Source: a virus (Duplodnaviria; Caudoviricetes). Taken from it: 64,000 nt of DNA. The notes beneath the pieces were generated by a model. The model was not told where the DNA came from. It saw only the letters and a list, made by a program, of their open reading frames with translations, and searched no databases. Positions 19,454 through 54,541 of this stretch are shown in pieces. Position 1 is the stretch's first letter. Each line of letters starts with the position of its first letter. The DNA lies in the IMG/VR virus record IMGVR_UViG_2862799924_000001, positions 7,607 through 71,606 of that record; one strand, given 5' to 3'. The position numbers and the translations under genes are program-made.

Positions 19454-20864
19454 CTTGTCCTTCCGGCGTGCCGGATTGTTCCAGTTCAAGGGGTGCGGGA
19501 ATGGGCTCCGCGGGTTCGAGGCTCGCGGGCGGCTGCATCTGCACCGACACGAGACCGGTGTGCTGACCGACGAGCTGAGAGACGTCTTCGGCGAGAATCG
19601 CCTGCACGGCGGCATCAGGCTCGAAGCCCGCCTTGATGAGGGCGTCGATCGTGTTCGCCTGTACGCGCAGGATCTCTGCGCGGTCCTTGGAGTCCTCGCG
19701 CAGAAAGGCAATGTCTCGGTCGTCGTACCAGAGGCTCGCGCCGCTCGGCACCATCACCAGGTTTTCCAGGCACGACGCGGCCACGCGCCACAGCGGGCGC
19801 ATGGTGCCGTCCGCGAAGCGGCGGCGGCTCGCGGTGAAGTTGGAGGCGTTGAGCGCGGATCCCTGAAGGCCCTCGGAGAAGCCGACCCACGAGGGTGGGA
19901 CCCCGGCGGCGCTCGCTATGCGCGCTTCACCCTTGCCGACGGTCGACGTGAAGTCGAGCTGCCGGAAATCGTGGGTGAGCGGCGTGACATCGGCGCCGCC
20001 CTGGAGGAAGAGGGTCTTGTACGCGTTGAACGCACCCTGATGCCCGGCCTTGAAGGCCCGCACGAAGGAGTCGAATTGTTCCTTCTGAACGTCCTTGTCG
20101 AAGCGCACCACCATGTTCGGCACGGCCGCATGCTCGAAGAACGTCTTCTTGTGGACCGTCGCCGCGGTGTCCGCCTCGATCTCCCGCAGCACCGGCGTGA
20201 TCCAGGACATGCCGCGGAAACGGGCCGACGGGTCAGGGATCGGGCTGTAGTGGGCGACCTCATCAGGCATGAGCAAGACGGCGCCGCCGGTCGCCATAGG
20301 CCCGCCCGACGACATGACGCCGAACTGCCGCGGCTCGTAGAGGAACCCAATGATGCGTGCGTCCGCGGCGTACAGATCACCGGAGTGGCTGCCGATCAGC
20401 ATCGACACCCAGTCAGGCCGCAGCCGCGCGAGCCTGAGGCCGGGGCCGCTCGCGGCGTTGCCGTAACCGCCCTGATCGTCAACCTTCGTCCAGTAGCTGT
20501 TCCCGGCCAGCGACGCGTCCTGCTCCATGCGCGCCAGCAGCTCGCCCGTCGTCCCGGAGGCCCACGGGCGTTCGAGCAGGCTCAGTTCGCCCGACCCGAA
20601 GAGGTCACCGGGACGCCCGTTCCTGAACTGACGGAACTGGAACCGCGCCTCGGAGAACACCATCTGCCGCGCCATGACGCAGCTGAAGATGGGCCCGTTC
20701 CTCTTGAAGGCTCCTTCGACGTAGCCCTCGAAGTCGGTCTCGATCCGCTCCTTGTCGGCGGTGCTGCCCATGAAGAACGGGGCAGCGTCGATGTTCCAGA
20801 AGTCGGGCTGCGTGAAGGCCTTCCGGTTACGCCCCCAGGGGATGAGCTTCTTCCACCAGGCCAT
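19440..20864 (-). CDS. portal protein
   Basis: LAGNSYW, LRPDWV, RGMSWITP, IASAAGVPPSWVG. Confidence 0.93.
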   Translation of the reverse strand: MAWWKKLIPWGRNRKAFTQPDFWNIDAAPFFMGSTADKERIETDFEGYVEGAFKRNGPIFSCVMARQMVFSEARFQFRQFRNGRPGDLFGSGELSLLERPWASGTTGELLARMEQDASLAGNSYWTKVDDQGGYGNAASGPGLRLARLRPDWVSMLIGSHSGDLYAADARIIGFLYEPRQFGVMSSGGPMATGGAVLLMPDEVAHYSPIPDPSARFRGMSWITPVLREIEADTAATVHKKTFFEHAAVPNMVVRFDKDVQKEQFDSFVRAFKAGHQGAFNAYKTLFLQGGADVTPLTHDFRQLDFTSTVGKGEARIASAAGVPPSWVGFSEGLQGSALNASNFTASRRRFADGTMRPLWRVAASCLENLVMVPSGASLWYDDRDIAFLREDSKDRAEILRVQANTIDALIKAGFEPDAAVQAILAEDVSQLVGQHTGLVSVQMQPPASLEPAEPIPAPLELEQSGTPEGQDDGA

Positions 20865-34613: not shown

Positions 34614-37205
34614 GGCCCTGAGCCTGACGCGGTATGGCGCCCCGGGCCGCGGTTTCGCCGGGGGCTGCCGTGAAGGAGCCGGGGCAGCGAGTGCGCACGG
34701 CACTCTGCGAGAACAGACGCATCTCGTGTCCGGCGAAGCACGGCCCCCGCCGGGAGACGACGACATCGGGCTGTGCGCCGCAGCGCGGGCAGCGGGTCAT
34801 GAGCCTCCTCCCCATACCGGCCGGACCCAGAGGTAGCTGCCGGTGCCTGATTCGCCCGTCCATCTGCGGCCGCAGGAGCAGCGGTGCGTACCGTCGCATC
34901 CCCTGCGGTGGCAGATGCAGCTGATGTCCGTGGCGTCGCATGCCCCGCCAGGGGACGTCTCCACGGGCATGAAATCCACCTGCGCGAAGGCGCCGCGTCC
35001 TGCTTCGTCGAACTCGCTGAGGCTGTGGCCCGCCTCTTTGCCCGGCGCGACCCATGACCAGTCGCCGCTGTCGTCCGCCGGGGCGCCCGGCGCGGACTGG
35101 CCGCCCCGGCACGGGATCAGCTTGTACCCCTGTTTCACGCCCACGGTGAAGTGCTCCCGCAAAACAAGATCCCCCTGGCTGTCCTTCACCAGGGGGATCT
35201 CCTTGCGGCAGCGCGGGCAGGCGCCCGCTGCTGGATCTTTACTCTTCATCGCCTTCCTCCTCGTCGTCTCCGGGTGCCTGCACCGGCTGGCCGCTCTCGT
35301 CGTAGACGATCGCGGTCTTCGTCTTGGGGTCGGTGACGGGCTCCCATTCGTCCCCGAGTCCGAGCGAGTGGTCGCGCCCCCATCCGCTGCACTGCGCGCA
35401 GATGCCGGGGACGCCCTCCTCGTAGGCGAGATCGAGGATCTTCTCCGGGTCGGTGGAATCCGTCTCGACGGTGACCGTCGCGGACGCGTAGCCGCTGAGC
35501 GGCACGGTGTACTTAGTCATCGCTCTTCTCCTTCTGGGTGTGCGGCCTGGCGTCGCGGATGTGCCACGTCTGGTGGATGTCGCACCCGTCGCTGCCGTCA
35601 CAGGTCTCTGCGACCAGCCCCAGCCCCGCCGCTTCGTCAGCCGTGATGACCCGCCGTTCCATCGGCTGGTAGGGCGAGGCGTCTGCCGGTGCGGCGGGGT
35701 GGCGCAGGCACCACCAGATGTCGCGCCAGAAGGCGGTGATCGCTTTCACGGCCGCTCCTCTCGGTCTGTCGCCTGGACGCGCCAGGCGACCGGGTCGTGC
35801 TTGGCGTCGCGGTGCGGCATGACGATCTGGCTGCCGTGCAGGCCGTAGCCGATGACTGTGCCCGGGGGCAGGTGCGGGTTTCCGGGAGATATCCCGGAGG
35901 GGCAGCCCGCGCAGCCGTCGCCTTCGTGGCGGCCGTGCTCGCAGCGGTCAAGGTCGGCGAGTACCCGGGCCATCTCGTCAGCCCGGCGGCCGTCCGGACC
36001 GGTGACGGTGCCCTGCTCGGTTCGCGTCAGGGTGTGTTCGATGCCCGCGATGGCTGCGGTGACCTTGGCGTGGAGCGGTGAAAAGAACACGTCGGTGGCG
36101 CAGTGAAGGGCGGCGTTCATGTGGGCATGGGCGGACAGGTGGGACTGTGCATCGACCAGGGCGTGGCGGGCTTTCTCCAGCTCCCGCCGCAGGTCTGTGA
36201 TCGCGGACTCGCTCATCCCCGCCCCCCTTCGATCCTCAGCGCCACGTCTTCGAGCACCGCGTTCAGGTACCGCTCCGCTCCATCGACGGGCTCGCGCACC
36301 TTCGCGGCGCGGACGAAGGCGGCGCTGGCGGCGCCAAGGTCACTCGCCAGGTGTTCGGCGAGGTGTTGCCGCGCCTGCGCCCGCCGCAGCACATCCCAGT
36401 GGGCGGCCTTGTTGAAGCTGACCAACGAGTCGTAGATGCGCTCCTGAAACCGATGCCGCGCGCTCATTCCTCACCCCTCTCGACCTTGATCGCGGCCCGT
36501 TCCAGGGCGCGGTTGACCCGTTCGTCGCTGTAGCTGACGACCGTCCTCAGCCGCCTGCCGCGTACGGTCTCGGCTGCCTCGCGGCGCACTTCGTCGCGGT
36601 AGGCGTCGATCAGCTGGGCGATGTCATGCATTGACCAGTCCCAGGGCTTCAGCCAGATGAGCCTGTCGCGTGCGCTGGGCTCAGGCGTCGTGCCTCCCGC
36701 CGGTGGCCTGCCCGAGCCGGGGCACTTGACGCCCCAGTTGTGATCCTGGAGCACGCCCTCCTTGGTGACAGGGGTGGACGGGTGCGTGCACTCGCTGCAC
36801 GCACCCGTCTCCGACGGCGGCCGACGGGAGCCGGGGCACTGTTCGGGCCGGTCGTGGGAGTAGAGGACTCCCTGCTTGGTGACACGGATGCCGCCAGGGT
36901 GTGCGCACTCGGTGCACGGGAAAAGGGCGGGCGTCTGCTCAGGCATCGCGCCTCTCCCCCACGAACCGGGCGTACAGGAGCGCCTTGCCGTTGGCGGTGC
37001 GTGCCAGCGCCTCGAAGGCGCCCGCGGGCTGGTAGACAGCGGTGATGCCCCGCTTGATACGGTACGCGGCGGTGCTGGCGGTGCCGATACGGGCGTGCTC
37101 CGCGATCACGGCCCACTCGCCGGGCCTCGCCTTCAGGCCCTCAGCGATGACGCGGTGGTCCACACCCGTGCCCTGGCGCTGCCGCGGCGGGTCTTCGAAT
37201 CTCAT
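34600..37205 (-). CDS. run of eight small translationally coupled hypothetical genes (34600-34800, 34797-35249, 35239-35520, 35513-35749, 35746-36216, 36213-36467, 36464-36946, 36939-37205)
   Basis: Overlapping ATGA/GTGA junctions; several CxxC...H...CPGS Zn motifs. Confidence 0.6.
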
Positions 37206-43382: not shown

Positions 43383-45578
43383 TCAGACCGCTGCCGAAGC
43401 CGGGTCTTCGTCGTCCTCGTCGACGTCTCTGGCGTCGGGAAGATCGGCGTAGCGCACGCCCTTCGCTCCCCCGCAGCAGTCCCGGATGGTGATCTGCCGG
43501 GTCGGAATCTTGTGCACCTTGAGGGCGGCCGACAGCGCCGTGGAACGGACGGCCTGGACGTCGCGTACTTCGTCCGGGCTCATCTCTGCGACAGCCTTCT
43601 CTGTCTCCATCCACGAGCCGTACAGCTCCGGCAGATACAGCGCGAGCGACTCGACCAGCCGGTGGCTGTGCACCGCGTCGGCGCCGTCCGGCCAGATGGC
43701 GTGGACGTGGTCGGCGATGGTCGTGCGGTCGGGCTTCTCGATCTGCTGGCCAGCGGCCTCACCGGACAGCGTTCCGGCCGCGGTCCGCAGGGCAAGTCCG
43801 CGCCGGCCCACATCGCGCACGTCCGCCTGCGGGATGAAGTACGCCCGCACGATCTTCGCGTTGGTCGCGGAGCGGGCGAGCCACCCGGTCCCGGAGTCCT
43901 TCGGGTCGTCTCCTTCGGCGGGCTCGAAGATGTTCGCGCGGATCCCGCGCTTGTACATGCCGGTGCCCAGCACCAGGTCATTCGCGGTGTGCCCGGTGAT
44001 CGCGAGACAGAAGCGCAAGATCGCGTTGTCACTGATCTTCTTGGGGATCGACTTCGCGTCGGGCCGCTGCGTGGTCAGCACCAGGATGATGCCGTACGCC
44101 CGCGCCTTGCGGATCAGCCGGGCGAAGACCGCCTCTGCCTCCTTGCCGTACACGGGGTGCTCGAAGAGCGTGTGCACCTCGTCGAAGATCGCGAGGATGG
44201 GGTGCAGGCGCAGGTGCGGGTACTTGTCCGAGAGCTTGCGCGTCACCTTGCGCCCGGTGGGTACATCCGCGACGGGGAGACCGGCGACGATCTTCTTGCG
44301 CCGCTTCATCTCCTTCTCCAGGGCGTAGCCCCCGTCCAGCGCGGCCTCGCAGTGCTCGTCGTCGTCGCCCTGCACGTAGCGGTGACAGATGGGCCTCAGG
44401 CCCTCCAGGTCACCCGAGCCCTTCAGCTCGAACAGCCACTCCTCGCAGGTGGGATCCAGCGCCCCGGCACATGCGATCGTGCACACCGCGCTGGTCTTCC
44501 CGGAGCCCATCACGCCGCCGATGAGCATGTTGGTCGCGATGACGGCGAGCGGCTCACGGTCGCCCTTGGGGGTGACGCCGAAGGGGATCACCCCGTACAT
44601 GTCCGCCGTGCCCCCGGCGAGCAGCGGCCACGGCCGCAGAATCGTGCGCGGGTCCTTCTTCGCGACCCAGATGTTCGCGCGCCCCGGATGCTCGGAGCCC
44701 ACCGACGGCCAGACGCACTGCAACGGGCGCCGCATCGCGGCGGCCAGCTCCTTGCGCTTGTCGAGCAGCAGTTCCGCGAGCGTCGCGCCGGGCAGGTCCA
44801 CCTGCGCCAGCCATCCGGGGCCGTCGACCGCGATCGGCGCGACGAACCGCGGCGTGCCCTTGACGCCGATCGCCTCGATCGCCTGAGCCAGCTCCTCGGA
44901 GTCCAGCGGACGCTGGAGGTGGATGGACAGGTAGCGGGTGACGATCGGCTTGTCCCCGCGCCGGCCGTACACACCGGCCAGAGCCAGGGCCGCGGTCACC
45001 GCGCCCCCGCACCACAGCGGCACGGCCAGCGCGGCCACGAACAGGATCAGCAACACTGTGCCCGCAAGGGCCAGGGACGCGATGCGCCGCGGCCTCACCC
45101 TGCGCGAGTGCTCACGCGACAGGGCCAGCCACGCCTCGATGTCGGCTGTCGCCGCGGCCCTGGCCGTCACCGGCCGCGCCTCGGTGTCCGCGACCCACTT
45201 GCCCCACCGGACGATGAGCCGCCCGGTGCCGCGCGGGGCGCACAGCAGCAGCCGGATCAGGTAGACCGGCAGGCGCAGCAGGTGGAACGCCCCGAAGTGG
45301 ACGCAGTAGGCCAGCGTCCAGCGCACGTTGACGGCGAACTCCCGCAGGCTGCGCAGCCAGGACGGCAGCACCGCGGGCGCGTCCGTGAGGTCGGCGCGGC
45401 GCTGCTCCGCCCACGTACCCGTGTCGGCTGCGACTTGCGGGGTGTCGACGGGCATTGGCGGCGCATCAGGATCGAGCGCGTACATCTCCCGCTTGTCGTC
45501 CGCTCCGACCTTCTTGAACGTGACCTTCTGCTCGGTCCCGTTGATGACCGTCCCCGTGGCGCCGTCGGGGATGCTCAC
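43383..45578 (-). CDS. traB: FtsK/SpoIIIE-family TraB-like DNA translocase
   Basis: N-terminal TM helices; Walker A GGVMGSGKT; IFDEVH; IRKARAYGIILVLTTQRPD; ANDLVLG. Confidence 0.85.
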   Translation of the reverse strand: MSIPDGATGTVINGTEQKVTFKKVGADDKREMYALDPDAPPMPVDTPQVAADTGTWAEQRRADLTDAPAVLPSWLRSLREFAVNVRWTLAYCVHFGAFHLLRLPVYLIRLLLCAPRGTGRLIVRWGKWVADTEARPVTARAAATADIEAWLALSREHSRRVRPRRIASLALAGTVLLILFVAALAVPLWCGGAVTAALALAGVYGRRGDKPIVTRYLSIHLQRPLDSEELAQAIEAIGVKGTPRFVAPIAVDGPGWLAQVDLPGATLAELLLDKRKELAAAMRRPLQCVWPSVGSEHPGRANIWVAKKDPRTILRPWPLLAGGTADMYGVIPFGVTPKGDREPLAVIATNMLIGGVMGSGKTSAVCTIACAGALDPTCEEWLFELKGSGDLEGLRPICHRYVQGDDDEHCEAALDGGYALEKEMKRRKKIVAGLPVADVPTGRKVTRKLSDKYPHLRLHPILAIFDEVHTLFEHPVYGKEAEAVFARLIRKARAYGIILVLTTQRPDAKSIPKKISDNAILRFCLAITGHTANDLVLGTGMYKRGIRANIFEPAEGDDPKDSGTGWLARSATNAKIVRAYFIPQADVRDVGRRGLALRTAAGTLSGEAAGQQIEKPDRTTIADHVHAIWPDGADAVHSHRLVESLALYLPELYGSWMETEKAVAEMSPDEVRDVQAVRSTALSAALKVHKIPTRQITIRDCCGGAKGVRYADLPDARDVDEDDEDPASAAV

Positions 45579-46384
45579 GGCGTACCCCGCAGCTTCTCCA
45601 CATCCCGGGCGTCGAAGAGGTGCCCGCCCCCGGGATCGGCTGCAACGGGAGTCAGAGTGCCGCGGTGCTTGTAGGACCGGACCGTGTTCGGGCTGACGTT
45701 CAGCCGCTCCGCGACCTCACTGGTCGTCAGCATCTCGCCACGCCCCTGCGGCGGCACCGCCACGGGCGTTGCGCCCGCCGCCACGAGCGGCAGCAGCCGC
45801 ACCCCCGCAGGAACCGCGTCGGCCCACCGGAAGACGGGGCGCAGGGGCGCTGCGCAGATGGCCGCAACGGGGGTGCGTTGCACCGCAACGCCGGGCGTTG
45901 CGACGCGTCGCGCGATGGCTTCGTGGACTTGGCGCATGAGCGCGCCGAAGGCGAGCAGCGCGGCGACGGGAGGCACGGCGGCGACGATGTAGTCCATGGG
46001 TTCGGCTCCGGCGCCCACCCCCGCGACGTTCAAGGCGATGGAGCCGAGCGATCCGGCGACGGCGAGCGCGATGGCCCACCAGTCGATGCGCCGCATGAGC
46101 GAGGCACGCAGGATGAGGACTTCGCCGATGACGATGAAGAGATCGACAGTGCCGGGCCACGCCCACGCCCTGGCGGGCGAGTGCTGAAGCCCCTGAGCCG
46201 CGGCGACATCGTGAAGGTGCTCGTACGAAAGCCAGAAGGCGCCGCCGGTGAGGGCGACGGTGGCGACGGCCGCGATGACGGCGAGCAGGGTCAGGACGCG
46301 CGAGGCGTCAGAAGAGGAAACGGGAAACCTGTCAGAACTCTTGATCACCGCAGGGGGTGCGGCGCTACCTTTCTTGCGGGCCAT
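45575..46384 (-). CDS. DUF2637 (SpdA/SpdB-like) membrane protein with C-terminal HTH
   Basis: AFWLSYEHLHDVA, AWAWPGTVDLFI, AAVPPVAAL; HTH LTTSEVAERLNVSPNTVRSY. Confidence 0.8.
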   Translation of the reverse strand: MARKKGSAAPPAVIKSSDRFPVSSSDASRVLTLLAVIAAVATVALTGGAFWLSYEHLHDVAAAQGLQHSPARAWAWPGTVDLFIVIGEVLILRASLMRRIDWWAIALAVAGSLGSIALNVAGVGAGAEPMDYIVAAVPPVAALLAFGALMRQVHEAIARRVATPGVAVQRTPVAAICAAPLRPVFRWADAVPAGVRLLPLVAAGATPVAVPPQGRGEMLTTSEVAERLNVSPNTVRSYKHRGTLTPVAADPGGGHLFDARDVEKLRGTP

Positions 46385-46532
46385 TGGAGGTACGTCTCCA
46401 GGGGTCAAGAGGTCCCGGCTCGCGGGGTTGCAGCCGCTTGCCGGGGCCCGCCGGTTGATGTGGTTCCGCTCTACGCCCGCCCGTTCGGCGAGCGCAAGCG
46501 GGTCCGGGAATCCGCCACCCCGCACCAGTGCG

Positions 46533-48638: not shown

Positions 48639-49361
48639 TCACCGGATGATCCCGGCGGCGGAAGCGGCGGCCAGCCAGCCCGCGTACTCGTGGGTGATGC
48701 CGTCGTACAGGTCGGCGTCGCTCACGGTGTGCGGGTCGCGGGCGTGGAAGAAGCTGGCGTTGTCGACCTTCCGGCCGCGCAGGTCATCGAGCTTCTCCAG
48801 GAACTCGATGCGCTCCCCGTATCCGACGAACGCCCAGAAGATCGGCAGCGAGGACGCGTCCTGGAGTGCGTGCTTCGCGTCGGGCTTGCTGTCGGGGGCA
48901 CCGTCGCTCTGGAAGATGACCAGCGCTGGGTCGGTGGCGCCGGAGCGCTGGTAGTGCGCGATGACCGACCGCATGGCCGAGCCGTAGTTGGTGGTTCCCC
49001 ACCGCACTGCCGTGTGCGTGGCGTCGATGACCCCGGTGTGACTGTGCAGGCGGACGTCGACCGGGCGCTCGGCAACCGTGCCGAAGTAGATCAGCGGCAC
49101 CGTGCCGTCGTCGTCCAGGTTGGCGGACAGCCCCAGCGCCTGCTCTGCCAGCCGCTGAACGCTGCCGTCCTTGTAGAAGCCGTGCATCGAACCCGAGTGA
49201 TCGAGGACGAGGTATACGGCGGCGCGCTGGCCGGTGAGCCCGGACTTCTCCAGGCTGACGGCGGCCGACTTGGTGAGGCTGACCAGCCCCGGCGGGACCT
49301 TGTCGAGCGTGATCGCCGGACCGGTGCCGGTCGGCGGTGGAACATTCTTGCTGCGGAACAT
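48639..49361 (-). CDS. vWA domain protein (TerF-associated type)
   Basis: AAVYLVLDHSGSM MIDAS, LDDDG, FQSDG, RKVDNASFF. Confidence 0.85.
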   Translation of the reverse strand: MFRSKNVPPPTGTGPAITLDKVPPGLVSLTKSAAVSLEKSGLTGQRAAVYLVLDHSGSMHGFYKDGSVQRLAEQALGLSANLDDDGTVPLIYFGTVAERPVDVRLHSHTGVIDATHTAVRWGTTNYGSAMRSVIAHYQRSGATDPALVIFQSDGAPDSKPDAKHALQDASSLPIFWAFVGYGERIEFLEKLDDLRGRKVDNASFFHARDPHTVSDADLYDGITHEYAGWLAAASAAGIIR

Positions 49362-49479: not shown

Positions 49480-50319
49480 CTAGAAGGGCGGCGGCTCCTG
49501 CGCCTGGAAGGTCTTCGCGATCATCGTTGCCTGCTCGGCCGTCATCCCTTCCGGGTTGACGCCCTTGCTCTGCAGGAACGCGACCAGCTGCGGGTCAAGG
49601 GCGGCAGACCCAGAGGCAGGGACGGTCTGGGCAGGGGCTGCCTGCGCTGAACCGGCAGGGTTCCCCCACTGAGGGGCCGGGCTACCCGGTGCAGTCGCTG
49701 CCGGGGCACCCGCACCAGTCGGTGCCTGGGCAGGCGTCGCCGTGGCAGCAGGTGTGCCCCATTGCCCCTGCGGAGGGCCCGCCGGTGCCGCTGCTCCGGG
49801 TGTGCCCTGCCACGGGTCGTACGGCAGCTGCTGCGAGACGTGTTGAGGCTGCTGCCCCCACGCCTGCTGCTGGGCAGGCGCCGCCTGCGCGGTCGGCTGG
49901 GTGAAGGCGTTGCGCGGGTGGGCGTTGATGTACTGCGTCGCCATCTGGACGTCGGCGTCGGAGTACTCGGCCAGGTAGAAGGCGCCGGACTTCTGTCCCT
50001 GCGCCGCTGTCTGCGCGAGCCTGCCCAGCACCATGCCGCCGCCGCAGTGCTTCTTGATCTGCGGGACCAGCGCCTTGCCGCCGACGCGTGCGTTGCTCAG
50101 GACGGTCGGCTGTCCCGTCTCCGGGTTGACCAGGTCGATGATCGCCACGTCGGCTTCGACCGCGTCGTACGGCTCAGGCTGGCCGTTCTGCCCGGTGCCC
50201 ATGTGCTGGCTGACGCTGTCCGGGTAGAACAGGAACAGCTTGCCGACCCACTCGGGATGGTCGCGCGGCGTGAACCGGTCGCCGCGGTCAGGCTGCGCGA
50301 AGGGATTAGGGGTTGTCAC
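49480..50319 (-). CDS. putative ssDNA-binding protein
   Basis: Beta N-domain, long Q/P/A-rich tail ending EPPPF; replication module. Confidence 0.6.
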   Translation of the reverse strand: MTTPNPFAQPDRGDRFTPRDHPEWVGKLFLFYPDSVSQHMGTGQNGQPEPYDAVEADVAIIDLVNPETGQPTVLSNARVGGKALVPQIKKHCGGGMVLGRLAQTAAQGQKSGAFYLAEYSDADVQMATQYINAHPRNAFTQPTAQAAPAQQQAWGQQPQHVSQQLPYDPWQGTPGAAAPAGPPQGQWGTPAATATPAQAPTGAGAPAATAPGSPAPQWGNPAGSAQAAPAQTVPASGSAALDPQLVAFLQSKGVNPEGMTAEQATMIAKTFQAQEPPPF

Positions 50320-50459
50320 GAAGATCTCTCTTTCCTGTTACGGGAGTTCGGTTGTCTGCGCGCCGCAGCCGGCGCATATCCAGCGCAGCGGGCCGCGCGC
50401 CGTCTCGGCCCACCAGTGCAGCTGCGGGAAGAGGCGGTGCACCAGTACGCGGAGCCACC

Positions 50460-50663
50460 TCACGCGGCCTGCTTTTCTTGCACGGCATCGAATGCGGCCC
50501 GCACCTCCGAGTCGCGGTAGCGGCGGTGCCCGCCGAGCGTGCGGACCGAAGAGAGCTTCCCGGCCTGCGCCCAGCGGGACACCGTCTTGACGTCCACGCG
50601 GAAGATCTCAGCCACCTCACCCGGGGTGAGCAGCTTCTCGTAATCGAGTTCCATATCTGTCAC
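50460..50663 (-). CDS. bldC: BldC-family MerR-like HTH regulator
   Basis: LLTPGEVAEIFRVDVKTVSRWAQAGKLSSVRTLGGHRRYRDSEVRA. Confidence 0.88.
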   Translation of the reverse strand: MTDMELDYEKLLTPGEVAEIFRVDVKTVSRWAQAGKLSSVRTLGGHRRYRDSEVRAAFDAVQEKQAA

Positions 50664-50666
50664 CTC

Positions 50667-50852
50667 CTATTGGGGCAGCACCTCGAACATGGGGCGCGAG
50701 AATCCGCCGGAATCCTGTCCGGGCGTGATGTCATCTTCGAGTTCCGGGATGTACTTGTTCGGCACCGAATAGCTGATCTCGCAGCGTTCCAGGTTCCCAG
50801 GGCTTTCGGGGTCGTCCTCCCACCACTGCACGGCGGGATTACTGTCGACCAT
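50667..50852 (-). CDS. small hypothetical protein
   Basis: AAGGAGAAGG RBS; MVDSNPAVQWWEDD... Confidence 0.5.
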   Translation of the reverse strand: MVDSNPAVQWWEDDPESPGNLERCEISYSVPNKYIPELEDDITPGQDSGGFSRPMFEVLPQ

Positions 50853-50869
50853 TACGCCGCCTTCTCCTT

Positions 50870-51043
50870 GCCTGCCAAGCCGCGGCTTACCGCGACGCGC
50901 CGGAACTTGCCCTGACATAACCCGCCTGCCTTGCCAGACCGCGCCGCAACCGGACGCGCATTGACATGCCCGGCCTCGCCTCGCCTGCCACGCCGTGCCA
51001 AGCCTGGCCTTGCCACTCCAATCCCGGACCCGCCACGCCTGCC
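50870..51043 (-). ncRNA. 3-unit (NN-GGY)n array delimited by GGCAGGC, putative guide RNA array
   Basis: GCCTGCC at 50870, 50924, 50983, 51037; inserts of 47, 52, 47 nt in exact 5-nt register. Confidence 0.8.
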
Positions 51044-51048
51044 GTGCG

Positions 51049-51471
51049 CTACGCCGCTTCGTCGTTCAGGTCTTCGCGGATCATCTCTGTGAATTCCTCG
51101 AAGTCCTGGTAGCGGCGCTTAAGCGTCTGCCATTCACGCGCCATGTCGGCCAGTACGAGGCGGCGCGTGAAGTCATCGGATACGACCGTTTCGACGGGCT
51201 CGTATACGTGGCCGTGCTCGCGGCGCACCGCGTGGTAGGCGCGCACCGATTTGGCGGGACCGCTCTCGTCCGCCTCGCGGTACACCACCTTCACGGAGCG
51301 GATCAGTTCGTGCGCCTGCTGCTGCCGGTACTTCTCACCGGCCACGCCGTCGTTCCATTCGAAGCGGGAATGCAGCGGATGAGATGCGTCGCGCGCCTCA
51401 TCCACGATCAGTGACGGCGTGAGCTGCCCCCGCTGGTCGTAGATGGATTGCAGCTGGTCGCGCAGGCTCAC
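51049..51471 (-). CDS. partner protein of the RAMP-like gene
   Basis: GTG overlaps the upstream stop; GQLTPSLIVDEARDASHPLHSRFEWND..AGEKYR..QAHELIRSV. Confidence 0.8.
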   Translation of the reverse strand: MSLRDQLQSIYDQRGQLTPSLIVDEARDASHPLHSRFEWNDGVAGEKYRQQQAHELIRSVKVVYREADESGPAKSVRAYHAVRREHGHVYEPVETVVSDDFTRRLVLADMAREWQTLKRRYQDFEEFTEMIREDLNDEAA

Positions 51472-52076
51472 GAGATGACCTCGACTTCCCGCGACTGGTC
51501 GATGTCGTACGTGCCGAAGTCGCCGCCCTTCTCGGGGCGCCACTCCCCCACGCCGACGCCCATTCCGCCCGCCGCGATCAGGGAGATCACGGATTCGCGG
51601 GTCAGCATCGACTTGACGTAGACGACGTCCAGTGCCGTGGTCCACTCCGGGAACTCGGGGCGGTAGCGCAGGTCGTGGCCGCCGCGCCCCACCGTCACGG
51701 TGTCTTCGCGCATGTGCGGGGTGCCGTCGATGCGGGTCATGCCGCGGCCGTCGTCGCCGACCTCGCCACGGAAGAACATGAACTGCCGCAACGCGGTCAT
51801 CGTCACGCCCTGGTAGAACCGGGCGCCGCCGATCGTCGCCGCCTTGAACGCGATAACCGGGAAGCCGTAGCCGCCGTCCTTCAGGTGGTAGAAGGCGGCC
51901 TCGTACTCGGCTTCCGGGTCCTTGCTCTGCTTCGGAGACTTGCGTCCCTGCATGTTGTCGAGCATCTGCCGCTTCGCCTTTTCACTGAAGCGGTGCACGA
52001 TCAGCGGCGACGTTCCCACAATGGGGATACGTATGGTTTCCGCGTCGATCTTTTCGAGCTGAATTTCAGCGGTCAT
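51468..52076 (-). CDS. standalone RAMP/Cas7-like protein (Vipr-like)
   Basis: IPIVGTSPLIVH first strand; GFPVIAFKAA; RYRPEFPEW; G-rich loop GGMGVGVGEWRPEKGGDFGTY. Confidence 0.75.
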   Translation of the reverse strand: MTAEIQLEKIDAETIRIPIVGTSPLIVHRFSEKAKRQMLDNMQGRKSPKQSKDPEAEYEAAFYHLKDGGYGFPVIAFKAATIGGARFYQGVTMTALRQFMFFRGEVGDDGRGMTRIDGTPHMREDTVTVGRGGHDLRYRPEFPEWTTALDVVYVKSMLTRESVISLIAAGGMGVGVGEWRPEKGGDFGTYDIDQSREVEVIS

Positions 52077-52101
52077 CTTCTCTTCCTTCACGGGTAGTTG
52101 T

Positions 52102-52735
52102 TTGCCTTGCCATGCCTGCCATGCCTTACCAGACCTTGCCGGGACGGGACTTGCCAGAGCGTGCCTGCCTTGCCGTAACCGGCCACGTCGGGACGTAACT
52201 TGCCCCGCCATGCCTGCCGCGCCGAACCGCAACGATCCGTGCCATGCCTAAACTCGCCTAGCCTGCCGCGCCTTTCCCTGCCTCGCCCGAACTCGCCGAA
52301 CCATGCCTGCCACGCCTCGCCAGAACTTGCCGGACCGGGACTTGCCAGAGCGCGCCTGCCTCGCCAAAGCCATTTCCCGCCCCGCCTTGCCTGCCATGCC
52401 CCAACTCACTGCGCCGTGCCGAAACCCGCCCAGCCTGCCGCGCCAAAACGCACGTCGCCCAGACGCGCCGCAACTCGCCTCGCCTGCCATGCCCTGCCGG
52501 GCCATTCCGGTCCATGCCCGGCCACGCCTGCCCTGCCGAGTCTTGCCACGCATTACCGAGCCGTGCCATTTCACGCCGCGACCTGACTGCCGAACAGCAC
52601 CCCGCCATGACGGGCCAATCCGCGCCCTGCCTGCCGTGCCGCGCCGAACCGAGCCTGGACAACCCTTGCCTGGCCCCGACTTGCCCAACCGCGCCTGCCT
52701 CGCCAAAACTGAACTCACCGCAACCAACTTGGGCC
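52102..52735 (-). ncRNA. 12-unit (NN-GGY)n array delimited by GGCAGGC, putative guide RNA array
   Basis: 13 delimiters from 52114 to 52693; inserts of 37, 42, 52 or 57 nt (one irregular 28 nt) in 5-nt register. Confidence 0.85.
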
Positions 52736-52747
52736 ACGTCACTTCAT

Positions 52748-54541
52748 CTACCGCCCCGGACACCCCCGCTCCATGTTCGGATCACCGGGCGCATACCAGT
52801 CGCAGAATTTGCAGTCGCTCGGATCGACGGGGAATTGGCGTGCCACTTCAAGCGGCGTGCGCTCTGTCGGGCCTGCTCCGATGTAGTCGTGGATACCGTT
52901 GTCGATCCTGTCCACCCGCGCCAGCGCATCGCGCGCTATCTGCGGGTCGTAGGGTTCGACGACCGCATACAGATCGTCCAGCGAAGACGACTCCATGGGC
53001 CACGACAGCAGCGCCACGAAGTCGACGCGCTCGCCTTGCAACCTCGCGCCGAATCCGTACACGTGCAGCTGTGTTCGCTGCGTCGGCGTCATGCCTTCCG
53101 TGCGCAGCTTGTTCTGTGACCACTTCCCCTGGATCTTGTGGTCATCGACCATGAACAGGACGCGGTCAAGGAGATCCGTCGTGCCGCGCGGTACGAGACC
53201 GCTGGGGAACTTCAGCGGCACCTCGACAGCGAAGCGTCCTGTGTTGCCGCTCGCCCACGTGAACACCTCGGCCAGCTCCTTGTGGATGGCCGTGCCCTTG
53301 AAGGAAGCCCAGCCGTCGCCGCCCGGATTGACCGGCGGTATCCGCAGCAGCGACATGGCAAGGCGCCTGTCGCAGGGGCTGCCGATCTCGGACGGCCCGA
53401 GCGTCGTCTGCGCCGATCGGTTGTCGTTCGTCTTCCGGTTGCCGAACGAGTAGAAGACCTCCCGCATCCTGGCGACCAGCCGTTCAGCCATCATCGTCAT
53501 CGGCACGGCAGGCTCTGCCGCGGGCGTCTTGGCCGGCTGCGAGAACGGCGAACCCGGCTGGGCGAAGAGCGGCTCAGCCGGTGCCGCAGCCGCAGGTTCC
53601 GTCCGGCTTGAGGCAGTCGGGGTGAGAGCCGCATCCGGCGGCGGCACAGGGGCCGGTGACCTTTCCGGGGCATCCGCAGGTGCCGGGGCTGCACTGTCCG
53701 CAGGCGTGGCGTCCGGGGTGGGGGCATCCTTCCGGGAAAGCCTCGTCACCGCCGCGACGCCCAGCTCTCTCTTGCTGGACGCTGCGGTCTTCCCCGGGCA
53801 CTGCGCCTGCCGCCTCTCGTACATCCACAGGTGCGGCCCGTGATCCTTCGTGATGTGGCACGGCTGCTCCTGCTGGCTCGATGCCCCGGCACCAGCACCA
53901 TCCGCAGAGCCCGCACCAGTTGGGTTCGTCGCAGGTGTTGAGGGGCTTGAAGGCGGCGCCTCGGCTGCGTCCGGCCGCGGCGGCGAGTCCTGCTGCGTAG
54001 TCGTCGACTCCGGGCAGGGCGGCGGCAGCTCCCTGTTCTCGATCGCTCTTGCGGCTGCCTCTGCCCATTTGCTGATCATCTCCTCGGACTCGTTGGGGGC
54101 CGCACTGTCGGCAGTCGGCCGGACATCCGTCGCACCGTCCAGGCGGGCAGTAGGCGCAGTCTGGTTCTGACCCGATGTAGGGGACTCCTTCACCGTCGGG
54201 CACGCGCTCTCTCCGCTCTCGTACGGCTTGCCGGACATGGGGCACTTCACGCGCTTCGACGTGGGTGTCTCGCCCTCGCGCATGTGATCGGTGAAGTACC
54301 CTGTCGCGCCGTCCAGTACGGGCGAGCCGGGGCAGGCGGGGCACGGCGCATAGTCACGGCCGATGACGGGCCGCTCGTCGTCGGGCCCCGTCTCGGGGCC
54401 GCGCCGGATCAGCCAGGCGGGGATGTCGCGCTTCGAGCGCGAGCACTCCGTCCCCTTCTCCCGGTCGTGCTTGCGGTAGTGGTTGTCCACCGTCGCGACC
54501 ACGTTCTTGTGGCAGGAGATGCAGTGATACCTATCGGCCAC
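52748..54541 (-). CDS. Cas4/RecB-like PD-(D/E)xK exonuclease with long N-terminal Zn and low-complexity region
   Basis: LGPSEIGSPCDRRL, GTAIH, GTTDL, DDHK, QLHVYG, CKFC...C. Confidence 0.85.
   Translation of the reverse strand: MADRYHCISCHKNVVATVDNHYRKHDREKGTECSRSKRDIPAWLIRRGPETGPDDERPVIGRDYAPCPACPGSPVLDGATGYFTDHMREGETPTSKRVKCPMSGKPYESGESACPTVKESPTSGQNQTAPTARLDGATDVRPTADSAAPNESEEMISKWAEAAARAIENRELPPPCPESTTTQQDSPPRPDAAEAPPSSPSTPATNPTGAGSADGAGAGASSQQEQPCHITKDHGPHLWMYERRQAQCPGKTAASSKRELGVAAVTRLSRKDAPTPDATPADSAAPAPADAPERSPAPVPPPDAALTPTASSRTEPAAAAPAEPLFAQPGSPFSQPAKTPAAEPAVPMTMMAERLVARMREVFYSFGNRKTNDNRSAQTTLGPSEIGSPCDRRLAMSLLRIPPVNPGGDGWASFKGTAIHKELAEVFTWASGNTGRFAVEVPLKFPSGLVPRGTTDLLDRVLFMVDDHKIQGKWSQNKLRTEGMTPTQRTQLHVYGFGARLQGERVDFVALLSWPMESSSLDDLYAVVEPYDPQIARDALARVDRIDNGIHDYIGAGPTERTPLEVARQFPVDPSDCKFCDWYAPGDPNMERGCPGR

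What the first reader, a model, noticed from the sequence alone, without database searches (positions are those of the whole stretch)
50870..52745. Candidate phage RNA-guided system: standalone RAMP/Cas7-like gene and partner between two (NN-GGY)n arrays
Seen: on the minus strand the order is a 12-unit array, a 202-aa gene with a RAMP-like first strand and G-rich loop, a coupled 140-aa gene, and a 3-unit array, all inside the early replication operon. Each unit is GGCAGGC followed by 8-12 variable dinucleotides (one irregular shorter unit) separated by a near-constant triplet (mostly GGC/GGT, sometimes GTT/GTC/GGA). There is no cas1/2/3/5/6/8 and no repeat-spacer CRISPR. Known: Cas7 RAMPs polymerise along guide RNA with a fixed nucleotide step. 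Inference: one protomer binds each 5-nt step, the triplet is the handle, and the NN pairs spell a gapped target. From memory, not checked here, this matches the recently reported VIPR (viral interference programmable repeat) architecture. With no nuclease evident in the cassette, the likely output is silencing of rival phages or host genes.
Basis: partly seen in the sequence, partly recalled or inferred. Interest (0 to 1): 0.97.

Follow-up and report, generated by a model that had tools for sequence, protein, structure and literature searches.

The report
Phage VIPR RNA-guided silencing cassette
A prophage of a high-GC bacterium carries a small RNA-guided DNA-recognition system of the VIPR kind first described in 2026, and one of its guides matches a rival phage's exonuclease gene perfectly, so it is real and interesting but no longer a new kind of system.

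Summary
On the minus strand lie a 12-13-unit array (52704-52102), a 202-aa gene, a translationally coupled 140-aa gene and a 3-unit array (51043-50870). Every unit is built of G-G/T-Y-N-N steps and bounded by GGCAGGC.

The 202-aa protein is a homologue of SUSP1 Vipr (PDB 36pp; family profile E 1.1e-12). Its model has a Cas7/Csm3 fold (Z about 12), and the residues that hold the GGY bases in SUSP1 are conserved.

Same-strand arrays lie beside the gene in 44 of 46 homologue loci, and the partner gene in 43 of 46. They include Mycobacterium and Gordonia phages.

The 1.9-kb cassette is absent from two syntenic relatives. Guide content turns over much faster than the protein.

Under the published one-base-skip rule, the first guide matches 24 of 24 positions in the Cas4-family exonuclease gene of a VIPR-less related phage. 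The skipped bases fall on codon wobble positions. The resident copy matches only 16 of 24. The other 13 guides have no target above chance.

VIPR has been in preprints since April 2026, including "staggered" tail-less arrays. This is therefore a new member of a known kind. RNA expression, RNA ends and silencing were not tested.

The parts
52102..52704 (-). Upstream vrRNA array. It has 12 GGCAGGC boundaries, giving 13 units if the degenerate boundary at 52586 is counted. Units are 44-64 nt with 8-12 G-G/T-Y-N-N steps each. It ends in three steps just before the ribosome-binding site of vipr.
52636..52699 (-). First unit of the upstream array (12 NN). Its one-base-skip reading matches 24 of 24 positions in the exonuclease gene of a related VIPR-less phage (L047 827-861 = G001 20565-20600).
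51468..52076 (-). vipr: 202-aa RAMP protein, a homologue of SUSP1 Vipr. Model pLDDT 96.5. G-rich loop at residues 170-185.
51049..51471 (-). vap-like partner, 140 aa. Its GTG start overlaps the vipr stop. It belongs to phrog_15946 and has an invariant HPLHxxFEW motif. Its N-terminal domain has no fold match; residues 100-139 form one long helix.
50870..51043 (-). Downstream vrRNA array: 3 units (54, 59, 54 nt) closed by a fourth GGCAGGC. It starts 5 nt after the vap stop and ends at the ribosome-binding site of the next gene (ATG at 50852).
52748..54541 (-). Neighbour, not part of the cassette: Cas4-family exonuclease (phrog_1674). It is the resident orthologue of the gene that the first guide matches in the rival phage. 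Its own site matches only 16 of 24. Homology with the cassette-less relative L054 breaks inside its 3' end, at 52903.

Best explanation
This is a VIPR (Viral Interference Programmable Repeat) system carried as an accessory 1.9-kb cassette in the early replication/recombination region of a temperate actinobacterial phage.

Proposed mechanism, step by step:
1. The arrays are transcribed with the minus-strand operon (inferred).
2. The transcript yields tail-less guide RNAs of about 45-65 nt, bounded at the GGCAGGC junctions. Successive units overlap by one G, so the spacing is 5n-1 (inferred from the register and from the legend of fig. S18 of the VIPR paper).
3. One Vipr protomer binds each G-G/T-Y-N-N step and builds a helical filament that hides the triplets and presents the NN pairs. 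This follows by homology with the SUSP1 cryo-EM structures; the contact residues are conserved here.
4. The NN pairs read double-stranded DNA while skipping every third base, so they read codon positions 1 and 2 and ignore the wobble base. This rule is published; here it is fulfilled exactly by one guide.
5. Binding blocks transcription of genes of competing phages. The 140-aa partner helps in a way that is not known (inferred).

At least one guide is aimed at the Cas4-family exonuclease gene of a related phage that lacks VIPR.
For: PROTEIN
- phmmer against PDB sequences finds only SUSP1 Vipr 36pp_D (E 3.1e-5; residues 134-184 against 133-183; both proteins are 202 aa).
- A profile of 67 family members hits the same chain at E 1.1e-12 over profile positions 22-199 against chain 5-189. 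The next hit has E 0.77.
- AlphaFold model: pLDDT 96.5.
- Foldseek against PDB: 63 matches with E <= 0.001; every row among the 32 listed is a RAMP subunit (Csm3, Cmr4, Cmr6, Cmr1 or type VII Cas7).
- VIA-align: Z 12.1-9.7 for all 50 rows shown, all CRISPR Cas7-family chains, with 130-170 residues aligned over model residues 1-202. This includes 6ifn_E at Z 10.7, the chain the VIPR authors used as their query (method).
- The SUSP1 contact residues H17, R138, D177, W178 and R179 align with H28, R139, E178, W179 and R180. In 67 family members these are H in 58, R in 67, E or D in 66, W in 56 and R in 67.

ARRAYS
- See the observation check.

ASSOCIATION
- 44 of 46 homologue loci have a same-strand array within about 1.2 kb, and 43 of 46 have the partner gene.
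- The two loci without an array are a contig that ends 131 nt after the gene and a spurious 27-residue match.
- The GGCAGGC four-base step and 5n-1 unit lengths recur in all 10 loci examined in detail, down to 41% protein identity.

TURNOVER
- Phages Donkeykong and Saal: vipr 98.9% identical in DNA, 5 and 3 units, none identical.
- L009 and L010: vipr 89.8% identical, 15 and 14 units, none shared.

ACCESSORY NATURE
- Window 52903..50853 (about 2.05 kb) corresponds to about 156 bases in the syntenic relative L054, which is 87-94% identical around it.
- No vipr, vap or array is present in the L054 and L055 loci.
- None of the 46 VIPR loci has the exonuclease within 4 kb.

TARGET
- The 24-base gapped pattern of unit 52699 has exactly one exact match in IMG/VR.
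- The match lies inside the orthologous exonuclease gene (52% identity over 306 aa, E 5e-102; phrog_1674).
- It reads codons V-A-D-D-C-K-F-C-P-F-H-A, with every skipped base on a wobble position.
- The phage is a CheckV-complete record without a Vipr homologue.
- Calibration: the 16-base core of the same pattern gave 15 stretches, of which 14 are unrelated. About 14 x 4^-8 = 2e-4 full matches are therefore expected by chance.
- 0 of 401 actinobacterial genomes hold the pattern with up to 3 mismatches.
- No self-target rises above chance. The resident site matches 16/24.
Against: - No RNA data: no RNA run holds the locus. Transcription, RNA ends and binding to the protein are therefore untested.
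- 13 of 14 guides have no target above chance in anything searched.
- The single matched phage has 60.8% G+C against 67.8% for the window. It shares only patches of 64-76% identity, so it may not meet this phage in one host.
- The exact pattern was absent from the metagenome collection.
- Only 91 of 138 steps are canonical GGY. Whether GTY, GGA and the other triplets are tolerated by this Vipr is unknown.
- There is no 3' tail, pseudoknot or ribozyme such as marks the experimentally studied systems. According to the VIPR paper, staggered arrays were not among the architectures confirmed by small-RNA sequencing.
- The partner has no detectable DNA-binding or other family. Its conserved His motif leaves an enzymatic role open, so 'silencing, not cutting' is an inference.
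- No promoter-like or terminator-like site was found.
Confidence: 0.88

Rival explanations
1. It is a VIPR member, but its output is not plain transcriptional silencing of rival phages. The conserved partner could be an enzyme, for example a nuclease recruited to the bound site. Alternatively, most guides could be aimed at host genes or at satellites and plasmids that the collections searched do not hold.
For: - The partner has an invariant HPLHxxFEW motif and no recognisable DNA-binding family.
- 13 of 14 guides have no phage target.
- The VIPR paper reports types whose vap genes are nucleases or helicases.
- The host genome could not be searched: G000 is only the 71.6-kb virus record.
Against: - No nuclease, helicase or other enzyme family was detected in the partner by Pfam, NCBIfam, PADLOC or PDB sequence search.
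- The only target found is a phage gene.
- The weak Foldseek rows are winged-helix DNA-binding domains (E 2-3), which fits the DNA-binding vaps of the paper rather than enzymes.
Confidence: 0.15
2. The arrays act as DNA, not RNA. They would be phased G-rich protein-binding repeats, iterons or G-quadruplex-forming DNA of the replication region, and the RAMP-like protein would bind them or something else.
For: - The cassette lies among replication and recombination genes.
- The arrays are 45% G on one strand.
- No transcript evidence exists.
Against: - Arrays are on the same strand as vipr in all 44 loci that have them. Their position varies (upstream, between the two genes, downstream), and they travel with the gene pair through unrelated neighbourhoods.
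- The protein is a homologue of one shown to bind such RNAs.
- The variable pairs of one unit spell an in-frame gene segment of another phage at a 3-base spacing. A DNA-structure role does not predict this.
Confidence: 0.03
3. The arrays are protein-coding: Gly/Arg/Ala-rich open reading frames, as annotators of related phages have called them.
For: - Open frames of 159-171 aa run through the upstream array.
- Gordonia phage Pipp gene 43 and part of Mycobacterium phage Donkeykong gene 48 are annotated over the homologous arrays.
Against: - The repeat period is 5, not a multiple of 3, and the register slips by one base at each unit. No reading frame therefore sees a repeated peptide.
- Content is not conserved between phages whose vipr is 98.9% identical.
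- Open frames are expected by chance in 68% G+C DNA.
Confidence: 0.02
4. It is a decaying or inactive VIPR remnant. The arrays are degenerating, with many non-GGY triplets, one unit with an indel and one lost boundary, and the guides no longer work.
For: - 47 of 138 steps are not GGY.
- One unit is out of register and one boundary is degenerate.
- Most guides lack targets.
Against: - Both genes are intact and translationally coupled, and all RNA-contact residues are kept.
- The same G-T-Y variants and occasional short units occur in relatives' arrays.
- The VIPR authors note frequent internal degeneracy of vrRNAs.
- One guide is a perfect 24/24 match.
Confidence: 0.05

Closest known systems
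VIPR system of Escherichia phage SUSP1 (type II VIPR; Vipr structure PDB 36pp; bioRxiv 10.64898/2026.04.26.720920 and 10.64898/2026.04.26.720927)
   Same: - A Vipr of the same length (202 aa) with detectable sequence homology and conserved GGY-contact residues.
- A two-gene vipr + accessory operon.
- Arrays both upstream and downstream of the genes.
- GGY/NN pentamer repeats of 8-12 steps.
- A natural target in a competing mobile element, read with a one-base skip on codon wobble positions.
   Different: - Very distant in sequence (single-sequence E only 3e-5).
- No conserved 3' tail or pseudoknot. Units abut directly at GGCAGGC with a one-base register slip.
- The second triplet base is G or T.
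- Up to 13 units in one array, against 1 + 3 in SUSP1.
- The accessory protein has no detected similarity to anything solved. Its relation to vap1 could not be tested because no vap1 sequence was at hand.
- The host is an actinobacterium and the carrier is a temperate phage.
'Staggered vrRNA arrays' described in the VIPR paper (legend of fig. S18, seen as text only)
   Same: The legend says that individual vrRNAs derive from positions overlapping by 1 nt, the end of one marking the start of the next. That is what a spacing of 5n-1 with the shared G of GGCA|GGC would give.
   Different: The figure, the loci shown and the VIPR type that has these arrays could not be seen, so identity with this clade is inferred. 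The paper states that the ribozyme-interspersed and single-vrRNA architectures were confirmed by small-RNA sequencing. By implication the staggered one was not.
Cas7-family backbone subunits of class 1 CRISPR effectors (Csm3, Cmr4, type VII Cas7)
   Same: - The same RAMP fold (Z 10-12 over nearly the whole protein), with G-rich loop and thumb hairpin.
- They polymerise along a guide RNA with a fixed step and flip out bases at regular intervals.
   Different: - No other cas gene, no repeat-spacer array and no adaptation module.
- The step is 5 nt with 3 bases sequestered, instead of 6 nt with 1 flipped.
- It recognises double-stranded DNA through a gapped code.
- Sequence identity is only 7-17%.

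Membership tests
VIPR | Vipr protein: a homologue of a characterised Vipr | tested here: met
   Single sequence against PDB: 36pp_D 'SUSP1 Vipr protein', E 3.1e-5. Profile of 67 relatives: E 1.1e-12 over nearly the full length, with the next hit at E 0.77.
VIPR | Minimal RAMP fold: single RRM core, glycine-rich loop and thumb | tested here: met
   Model pLDDT 96.5. All listed Foldseek rows (63 matches with E <= 0.001) and all 50 VIA rows (Z 9.7-12.1) are CRISPR RAMP/Cas7-family chains, including 6ifn_E at Z 10.7. The G-rich loop is AAGGMGVGVGEWRPEKGG. Thumb and loop were assigned from the alignment to SUSP1 and the secondary structure, not from a superposition on 36pp, which the fold library does not hold.
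VIPR | Residues that hold G1, G2 and Y3 of the repeat (SUSP1 H17, R138, D177, W178, R179) | tested here: met
   They align with H28, R139, E178 (D to E), W179 and R180. Conserved in 58, 67, 66 (E or D), 56 and 67 of 67 family members.
VIPR | Adjacent same-strand tandem YNNGG (GGY/NN) repeats, at least four units | tested here: met
   138 steps in two arrays. GGY in 91 and G-G/T-Y in 118 of 138. 34 phased positions against 0.26 in shuffles. 44 of 46 homologue loci have such an array.
VIPR | NN positions hypervariable while the triplet is conserved | tested here: met
   Entropy is 1.89 and 1.96 bits at NN against 0.27-1.13 at the triplet. No unit is shared between phages whose vipr is 98.9% or 89.8% identical.
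VIPR | Minimal locus: vipr plus an accessory gene, no cas genes, no CRISPR array | tested here: met
   Gene pair with overlapping stop and start. The partner is conserved in 43 of 46 loci. No PADLOC, Pfam or NCBIfam family for either protein. Only the two proteins and five neighbours were scanned for families, not the whole window.
VIPR | Natural targets found by the one-base-skip rule, with skipped bases on codon wobble positions | tested here: inconclusive
   Met for 1 of 14 guides: 24/24 in a rival phage's exonuclease gene, with all 11 skipped bases at wobble positions. About 2e-4 such matches are expected by chance. No target above chance was found for the other 13. Two further exact hits lie in 32-48% G+C contigs and are judged chance.
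VIPR | No self-targeting at 80% NN match or more | tested here: met
   The best self matches in the 71.6-kb record are no better than with 0- or 2-base skips or with permuted guides. One guide reaches 15/18, which is within the null range.
VIPR | vrRNAs are expressed, processed to under 100 nt and co-purify with Vipr | not testable with these tools
   No RNA run holds the locus. This needs small-RNA sequencing and a pull-down.
VIPR | Assignment to one of the seven published types (protein phylogeny, vrRNA architecture, vap identity) | not testable with these tools
   The type definitions are in figures and supplementary data that were closed. The main texts seen name no actinobacterial example.
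VIPR type II (SUSP1 clade) | Invariant structured 3' tail (pseudoknot) after each repeat tract | tested here: not met
   Units abut directly at GGCAGGC with nothing between them. The arrays are no more structured than shuffles (z +1.85 and -1.0). No Rfam match. The locus is therefore not filed under the SUSP1-type architecture.
CRISPR-Cas class 1 (type III-like) | Repeat-spacer array and further cas genes (cas10 or cas8, cas5, cas6, cas1/2) beside the Cas7 | tested here: not met
   No such family in the two cassette proteins or in the neighbours scanned. The repeats have a 5-nt period, not a repeat-spacer structure. In related phages the exonuclease neighbour is annotated as Cas4-family, but that is a common phage recombination gene.

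The most novel reading that the evidence does not exclude
The cassette may be a mobile, allele-discriminating weapon that brings its own immunity.

- It sits directly behind the exonuclease gene.
- Its first guide is aimed at the 3' end of that same gene in rival phages.
- The recombination breakpoint with the closest cassette-less relative lies inside that 3' end. The resident, non-matching allele (16/24) may therefore have arrived together with the cassette.
- The tail-less arrays would also work by a mechanism not yet shown for any VIPR. The one-base register slip at GGCAGGC itself would phase and terminate Vipr filaments and define the RNA ends, without a tail, ribozyme or dedicated nuclease.
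Probability: 0.12. Interest if true: 0.7.

Novelty: new member of a known kind. Interest (0 to 1): 0.42.

Why it matters
The kind of system is no longer new. It has been in preprints since April 2026, with biochemistry, structures and infection biology for E. coli phage SUSP1. What this locus adds is modest but useful.

1. It places a large actinobacterial clade firmly in the family. The representative search gave 3680 protein clusters for the whole family, and 4951 relatives in the word-index search. The clade includes phages that are easy to work with in teaching and research laboratories: Mycobacterium phages of the genus Cheoctovirus on M. smegmatis, and Gordonia phages. In their records the arrays are unannotated or called as genes.

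2. It documents the tail-less 'staggered' architecture in detail: GGCAGGC junction, 5n-1 spacing, conserved down to 41% protein identity. According to the paper this architecture lacks experimental confirmation, so the clade is a good place to ask how the RNA ends are made.

3. It gives a concrete natural guide-target pair outside the Enterobacteria and Pseudomonas. The target is an essential-looking Cas4-family exonuclease gene of a related VIPR-less phage, read in codon register.

4. It shows the cassette as a presence/absence polymorphism between near-identical prophages. That is the raw material for competition experiments.

Tried and rejected
EXPRESSION
- The look-up of sequencing runs listed no RNA holder. 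It listed only one DNA run, holding 5% of the sampled words.

RNA FAMILIES AND SIGNALS
- No Rfam match at E <= 1 in 50000-53500, so no hammerhead or other ribozyme.
- No sigma-70-like promoter or intrinsic terminator in 50300-53000.

ARRAY STRUCTURE
- The arrays are no more stable than mononucleotide shuffles (z +1.85 and -1.0). Only mononucleotide shuffles were used, 30 each.

TARGETS OF THE OTHER GUIDES
- No match above permuted-guide controls in the following:
  - the 440 kb of held sequence;
  - the rival record G001 apart from guide 52699;
  - the two closest relatives G004 and G005, scanned whole.
- Exact IMG/VR scans:
  - guide 50989 (22 bases): 0 hits;
  - guide 51043 (20 bases): 0 hits;
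  - the shared core of the paralogous guides 52360/52169: 2 hits, in 48% and 35% G+C contigs, judged chance;
  - guide 50930 (20 bases): 1 in-frame hit in a 32% G+C contig, judged chance because of the composition, though it cannot be excluded.
- Metagenome scans of guides 52699 and 50989: 0 hits each.
- 401 genomes of the class of Thermoactinospora: 0 matches to guide 52699 with up to 3 mismatches, and 0 for the reversed control. The same was found for 4 handles.
- Among the 14 chance hits to the 16-base core, three reach 20/24. The paper's 80% threshold alone is therefore not enough in a collection of this size.
- Streptomyces phage Dagobah, the nearest named relative of the target gene, matches 18/24.

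PARTNER PROTEIN
- No PDB sequence match.
- Foldseek best E 1.3, with forkhead/winged-helix rows at E 2-3.
- The VIA wide search was filled by the long C-terminal helix (Z 5.5-5.8).
- The protein atlas gave only unnamed viral clusters.

STRAY HIT AND LITERATURE
- The stray plus-strand hit at 35658-35712 is judged chance.
- A literature search for actinobacterial VIPR was badly framed (any two of six terms) and shows nothing either way.
- The main texts of papers 720920 and 759431 hold none of the words tried: Actino, Streptomyces and Mycobacteri in both, plus Gordonia in 759431 only. Their supplements, which list the 667 systems and the types, were closed and may well include this clade.

PAPERS SEEN
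- 10.64898/2026.04.26.720920: outline, all of Results, Discussion, four Methods sections, and passages with legends S17-S22.
- 10.64898/2026.04.26.720927: abstract and sections 5 and 6.
- 10.64898/2026.10.15.759431: abstract and passages.
- 10.64898/2026.10.21.760802: passages only.


Full report
WHAT IS THERE

On the minus strand, between a Cas4-family exonuclease gene (54541-52748; phrog_1674, E 8e-44) and a small gene that starts at 50852, lies a 1.9-kb cassette. In order it holds:
- an array at 52704-52102;
- a 202-aa gene at 52076-51468;
- a 140-aa gene at 51471-51049, whose GTG start overlaps the first gene's TGA;
- a second array at 51043-50870.

GGCAGGC occurs 12 times in the first array and 4 times in the second. 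Read from each GGCA onward, the sequence falls into 5-nt steps.
- Most units are 5n-1 long (44, 49, 54, 59, 64).
- The 103-nt unit is two units (49 + 54) with a degenerate boundary.
- The 35-nt unit carries a one-base insertion.

Over 138 steps the first three positions are constrained (0.27, 1.04 and 1.13 bits). GGY makes up 91 steps and G-G/T-Y makes up 118. The last two positions are nearly random (1.89 and 1.96 bits), and all 16 dinucleotides occur there. Autocorrelation of G at lag 5 is 0.45 and 0.39 in the arrays, against 0.02 in the adjacent coding sequence.

A phased-GGY scan finds 34 positions at or above threshold in the window, against 0.26 in Markov shuffles. The peak score itself (7 of 9) was reached once in the shuffles. 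All but one weak stray hit lie in the two arrays.

THE PROTEIN

Pfam, NCBIfam and PADLOC have no family for the 202-aa protein. PHROGs places it in phrog_4652, of unknown function.

Against the sequences of all solved structures, the only match is 'SUSP1 Vipr protein', 36pp_D, also 202 aa long (E 3.1e-5). A profile of 67 diverse relatives, taken from the 150 listed of 3680 representative hits, raises this to E 1.1e-12 over almost the whole length. Nothing else falls below E 0.77.

The AlphaFold model is very confident (pLDDT 96.5).
- Foldseek against PDB gives 63 matches with E <= 0.001, and every listed row is a RAMP subunit of a type III or type VII CRISPR effector.
- VIA-align gives Z 9.7-12.1 for the 50 rows shown, all Cas7-family chains, with 130-170 residues aligned. 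Among them is 6ifn_E (Z 10.7), the chain the VIPR authors used as their Cas7 query with a cut-off of Z 6.

The SUSP1 cryo-EM paper names H17, D177, R138, W178 and R179 as the residues that hold the two guanines and the pyrimidine of each repeat. In the HMMER alignment these fall on H28, E178, R139, W179 and R180. In the 67-member alignment they are H in 58, E or D in 66, R in 67, W in 56 and R in 67.

THE ASSOCIATION

I collected 46 loci around homologues:
- 4 picked from the 38 phage records found;
- all 4 from the species genomes;
- all 38 from IMG/VR.

Of these, 44 have a GGY array on the same strand within about 1.2 kb, and 43 have a homologue of the 140-aa partner next to vipr. The two loci without an array are a contig that ends 131 nt past the gene and a spurious 27-residue match. 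Several loci are duplicates or near-duplicates of one another (L006/L016, L015/L043, L038-L040), so the counts overstate independence.

The array may lie upstream, between the two genes, or downstream.

The GGCAGGC four-base step and the 5n-1 spacing recur in all 10 loci that I examined in detail out of the 46. These range from 76% down to 41% protein identity and include Mycobacterium phage Donkeykong, Gordonia phage Pipp and a Varibaculum prophage.

Guide content turns over far faster than the gene.
- Donkeykong and Saal have vipr 98.9% identical in DNA, but 5 and 3 units with none identical.
- L009 and L010 (89.8%) have 15 and 14 units with none shared.
- Only pairs with 99.8-100% identical vipr share their units.

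THE CASSETTE IS ACCESSORY

Two proviruses from IMG/VR are syntenic with the window (L054 is 87-94% identical; L055 is more distant). In them the exonuclease gene is followed at once by the small gene. Window 52903..50853 corresponds to about 156 bases of L054, and neither locus has vipr, the partner or an array.

Conversely, none of the 46 VIPR loci has this exonuclease within 4 kb. The neighbours confirm an early replication and recombination region: endonuclease VII, C5 methylase, Prim-Pol and an FtsK-like protein.

WHAT IS KNOWN

VIPR is in print. A full-text search finds three Doudna-laboratory preprints of April to October 2026 and a fourth paper that recovers VIPR arrays by their 5-nt periodicity. 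According to the parts I read:
- VIPR loci have a vipr gene and an accessory vap gene.
- vrRNAs are made of 9-16 YNNGG repeats.
- One protomer binds each repeat.
- The NN pairs read double-stranded DNA while skipping one base in three.
- The skipped base usually falls on the codon wobble position.
- Natural targets are competing phages and satellites.
- The outcome is transcriptional repression.
- There are seven types, with array architectures that include 'staggered arrays with overlapping vrRNAs'.

The legend of fig. S18 says that in staggered arrays the vrRNAs derive from positions overlapping by one nucleotide, the end of one marking the start of the next. A spacing of 5n-1 around GGCA|GGC is what that would give, with the G shared. 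I could not see the figure, so this equation is an inference.

The paper says that the ribozyme-interspersed and single-vrRNA architectures were confirmed by small-RNA sequencing. The staggered one is not said to be.

This locus has no tail and no ribozyme, and its arrays have no excess structure. It is therefore not of the SUSP1 (type II) architecture. Its type cannot be named without the closed supplements.

TARGETS

Following the published method, I turned 14 well-registered units into NN-x-NN patterns.

Self-targeting. Nothing in the phage's own 71.6-kb record exceeds what 0- or 2-base skips and permuted guides give.

The one clear hit. The 24-base pattern of the first unit (52699) has exactly one exact match in IMG/VR. 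It lies in a 67-kb, CheckV-complete phage record without a Vipr homologue. The match sits inside that phage's orthologue of the very exonuclease that precedes the cassette here (52% identity over 306 aa, E 5e-102; phrog_1674). The matched codons are V-A-D-D-C-K-F-C-P-F-H-A, and all eleven skipped bases fall on wobble positions.

Matches at the same site in other copies of the gene:

| Copy | NN match |
|---|---|
| Rival phage (L047/G001) | 24/24 |
| Resident gene | 16/24 |
| L054 | 17/24 |
| L055 | 18/24 |
| Streptomyces phage Dagobah | 18/24 |

Calibration. The 16-base core of the pattern gave 15 stretches, of which 14 are in unrelated contigs of 29-56% G+C. About 2e-4 full matches are therefore expected by chance, or about 1e-3 after allowing for the five patterns that I scanned. 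In addition, 0 of 401 actinobacterial genomes hold the pattern with up to 3 mismatches.

Weaknesses.
- The other 13 guides have no target above chance.
- Three exact hits of shorter patterns lie in low-G+C contigs and look like chance.
- The matched phage has 60.8% G+C and shares only patches of 64-76% identity with this one, so whether the two ever meet is open.
- The host genome itself could not be searched.

THE PARTNER

The 140-aa protein is conserved beside vipr (47% identity in Gordonia phages, 29% in Mycobacterium phages). It has an invariant HPLHxxFEW motif.

Its model (pLDDT 82) shows a small alpha/beta domain followed by a 40-residue helix. No solved relative was found by sequence or by fold:
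- Foldseek best E 1.3, with winged-helix rows at E 2-3.
- VIA rows cover only the long helix.

A DNA-binding role like that of the published type II, VI and VII vaps is plausible but not shown. An enzymatic role is not excluded.

VERDICT

This is a genuine VIPR system with a tail-less, staggered array architecture, carried as a mobile cassette by a temperate actinobacterial phage.

Shown here:
- homology, fold and conserved contact residues;
- array grammar and its association with the gene pair;
- guide turnover;
- the presence/absence polymorphism;
- one exact in-frame natural target.

Inferred:
- transcription and processing at the junctions;
- filament assembly;
- silencing as the output;
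- the role of the partner.

Because the kind has been published and characterised, I rate this a new member of a known kind, with moderate interest. The interest lies in the tractable actinophage clade, the experimentally unconfirmed staggered architecture and the exonuclease target.

Noticed in passing
L001 4617-4886 (Gordonia phage Pipp gene 43); L003 3480-3866 (Mycobacterium phage Donkeykong gene 48); gaps in L002 4612-4838 and L004 3578-3835: In deposited actinophage genomes the vrRNA arrays are either annotated as hypothetical protein genes or left as unannotated gaps. Vipr and its partner are 'hypothetical protein' in all 38 phage records found. These annotations could be corrected.
   Followed up: partly
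window 52903-52748: Nucleotide homology with the close relative L054 breaks inside the last 155 nt of the exonuclease gene, not at its stop. This is the stretch that holds the site matched by the first guide in the rival phage. The resident allele has CDWYA where the relatives have CPFYA, CPFFA or CPFHA.
   Followed up: partly
window 52360-52312 and 52169-52121: Two units are paralogues. They share the NN string CT-AA-CC-CC-AA-CT and the rare GCT and GTC triplets, and differ at both ends. A scan with their shared degenerate pattern found only two hits, in low-G+C contigs, judged chance.
   Followed up: partly
window 43383-46525 (minus strand): An FtsK/SpoIIIE-family protein (731 aa) and a DUF2637 + MerR-type HTH protein lie within the phage's early region, next to Prim-Pol. 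They resemble the transfer genes of actinomycete conjugative elements. Another note of this scan makes the same point.
   Followed up: partly
window 48639-49361 (minus strand): A vWA-TerF-like protein (Pfam PF10138, E 4e-58) is encoded between the Prim-Pol gene and an unassigned 279-aa Pro/Ala/Gln-rich protein.
   Followed up: no
window 50460-50663 (minus strand): A 67-aa MerR/excisionase-type HTH protein (HTH_17, E 2.5e-12) lies just downstream of the cassette. A homologue lies near the VIPR locus in 2 of 46 loci (L001, L005).
   Followed up: no
L056 4436-4464: The 20-base gapped pattern of guide 50930 has one exact, in-frame match. It lies in a 1404-aa open frame of a 32% G+C IMG/VR contig. 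It is judged chance because of the composition, but this is not excluded rigorously.
   Followed up: partly
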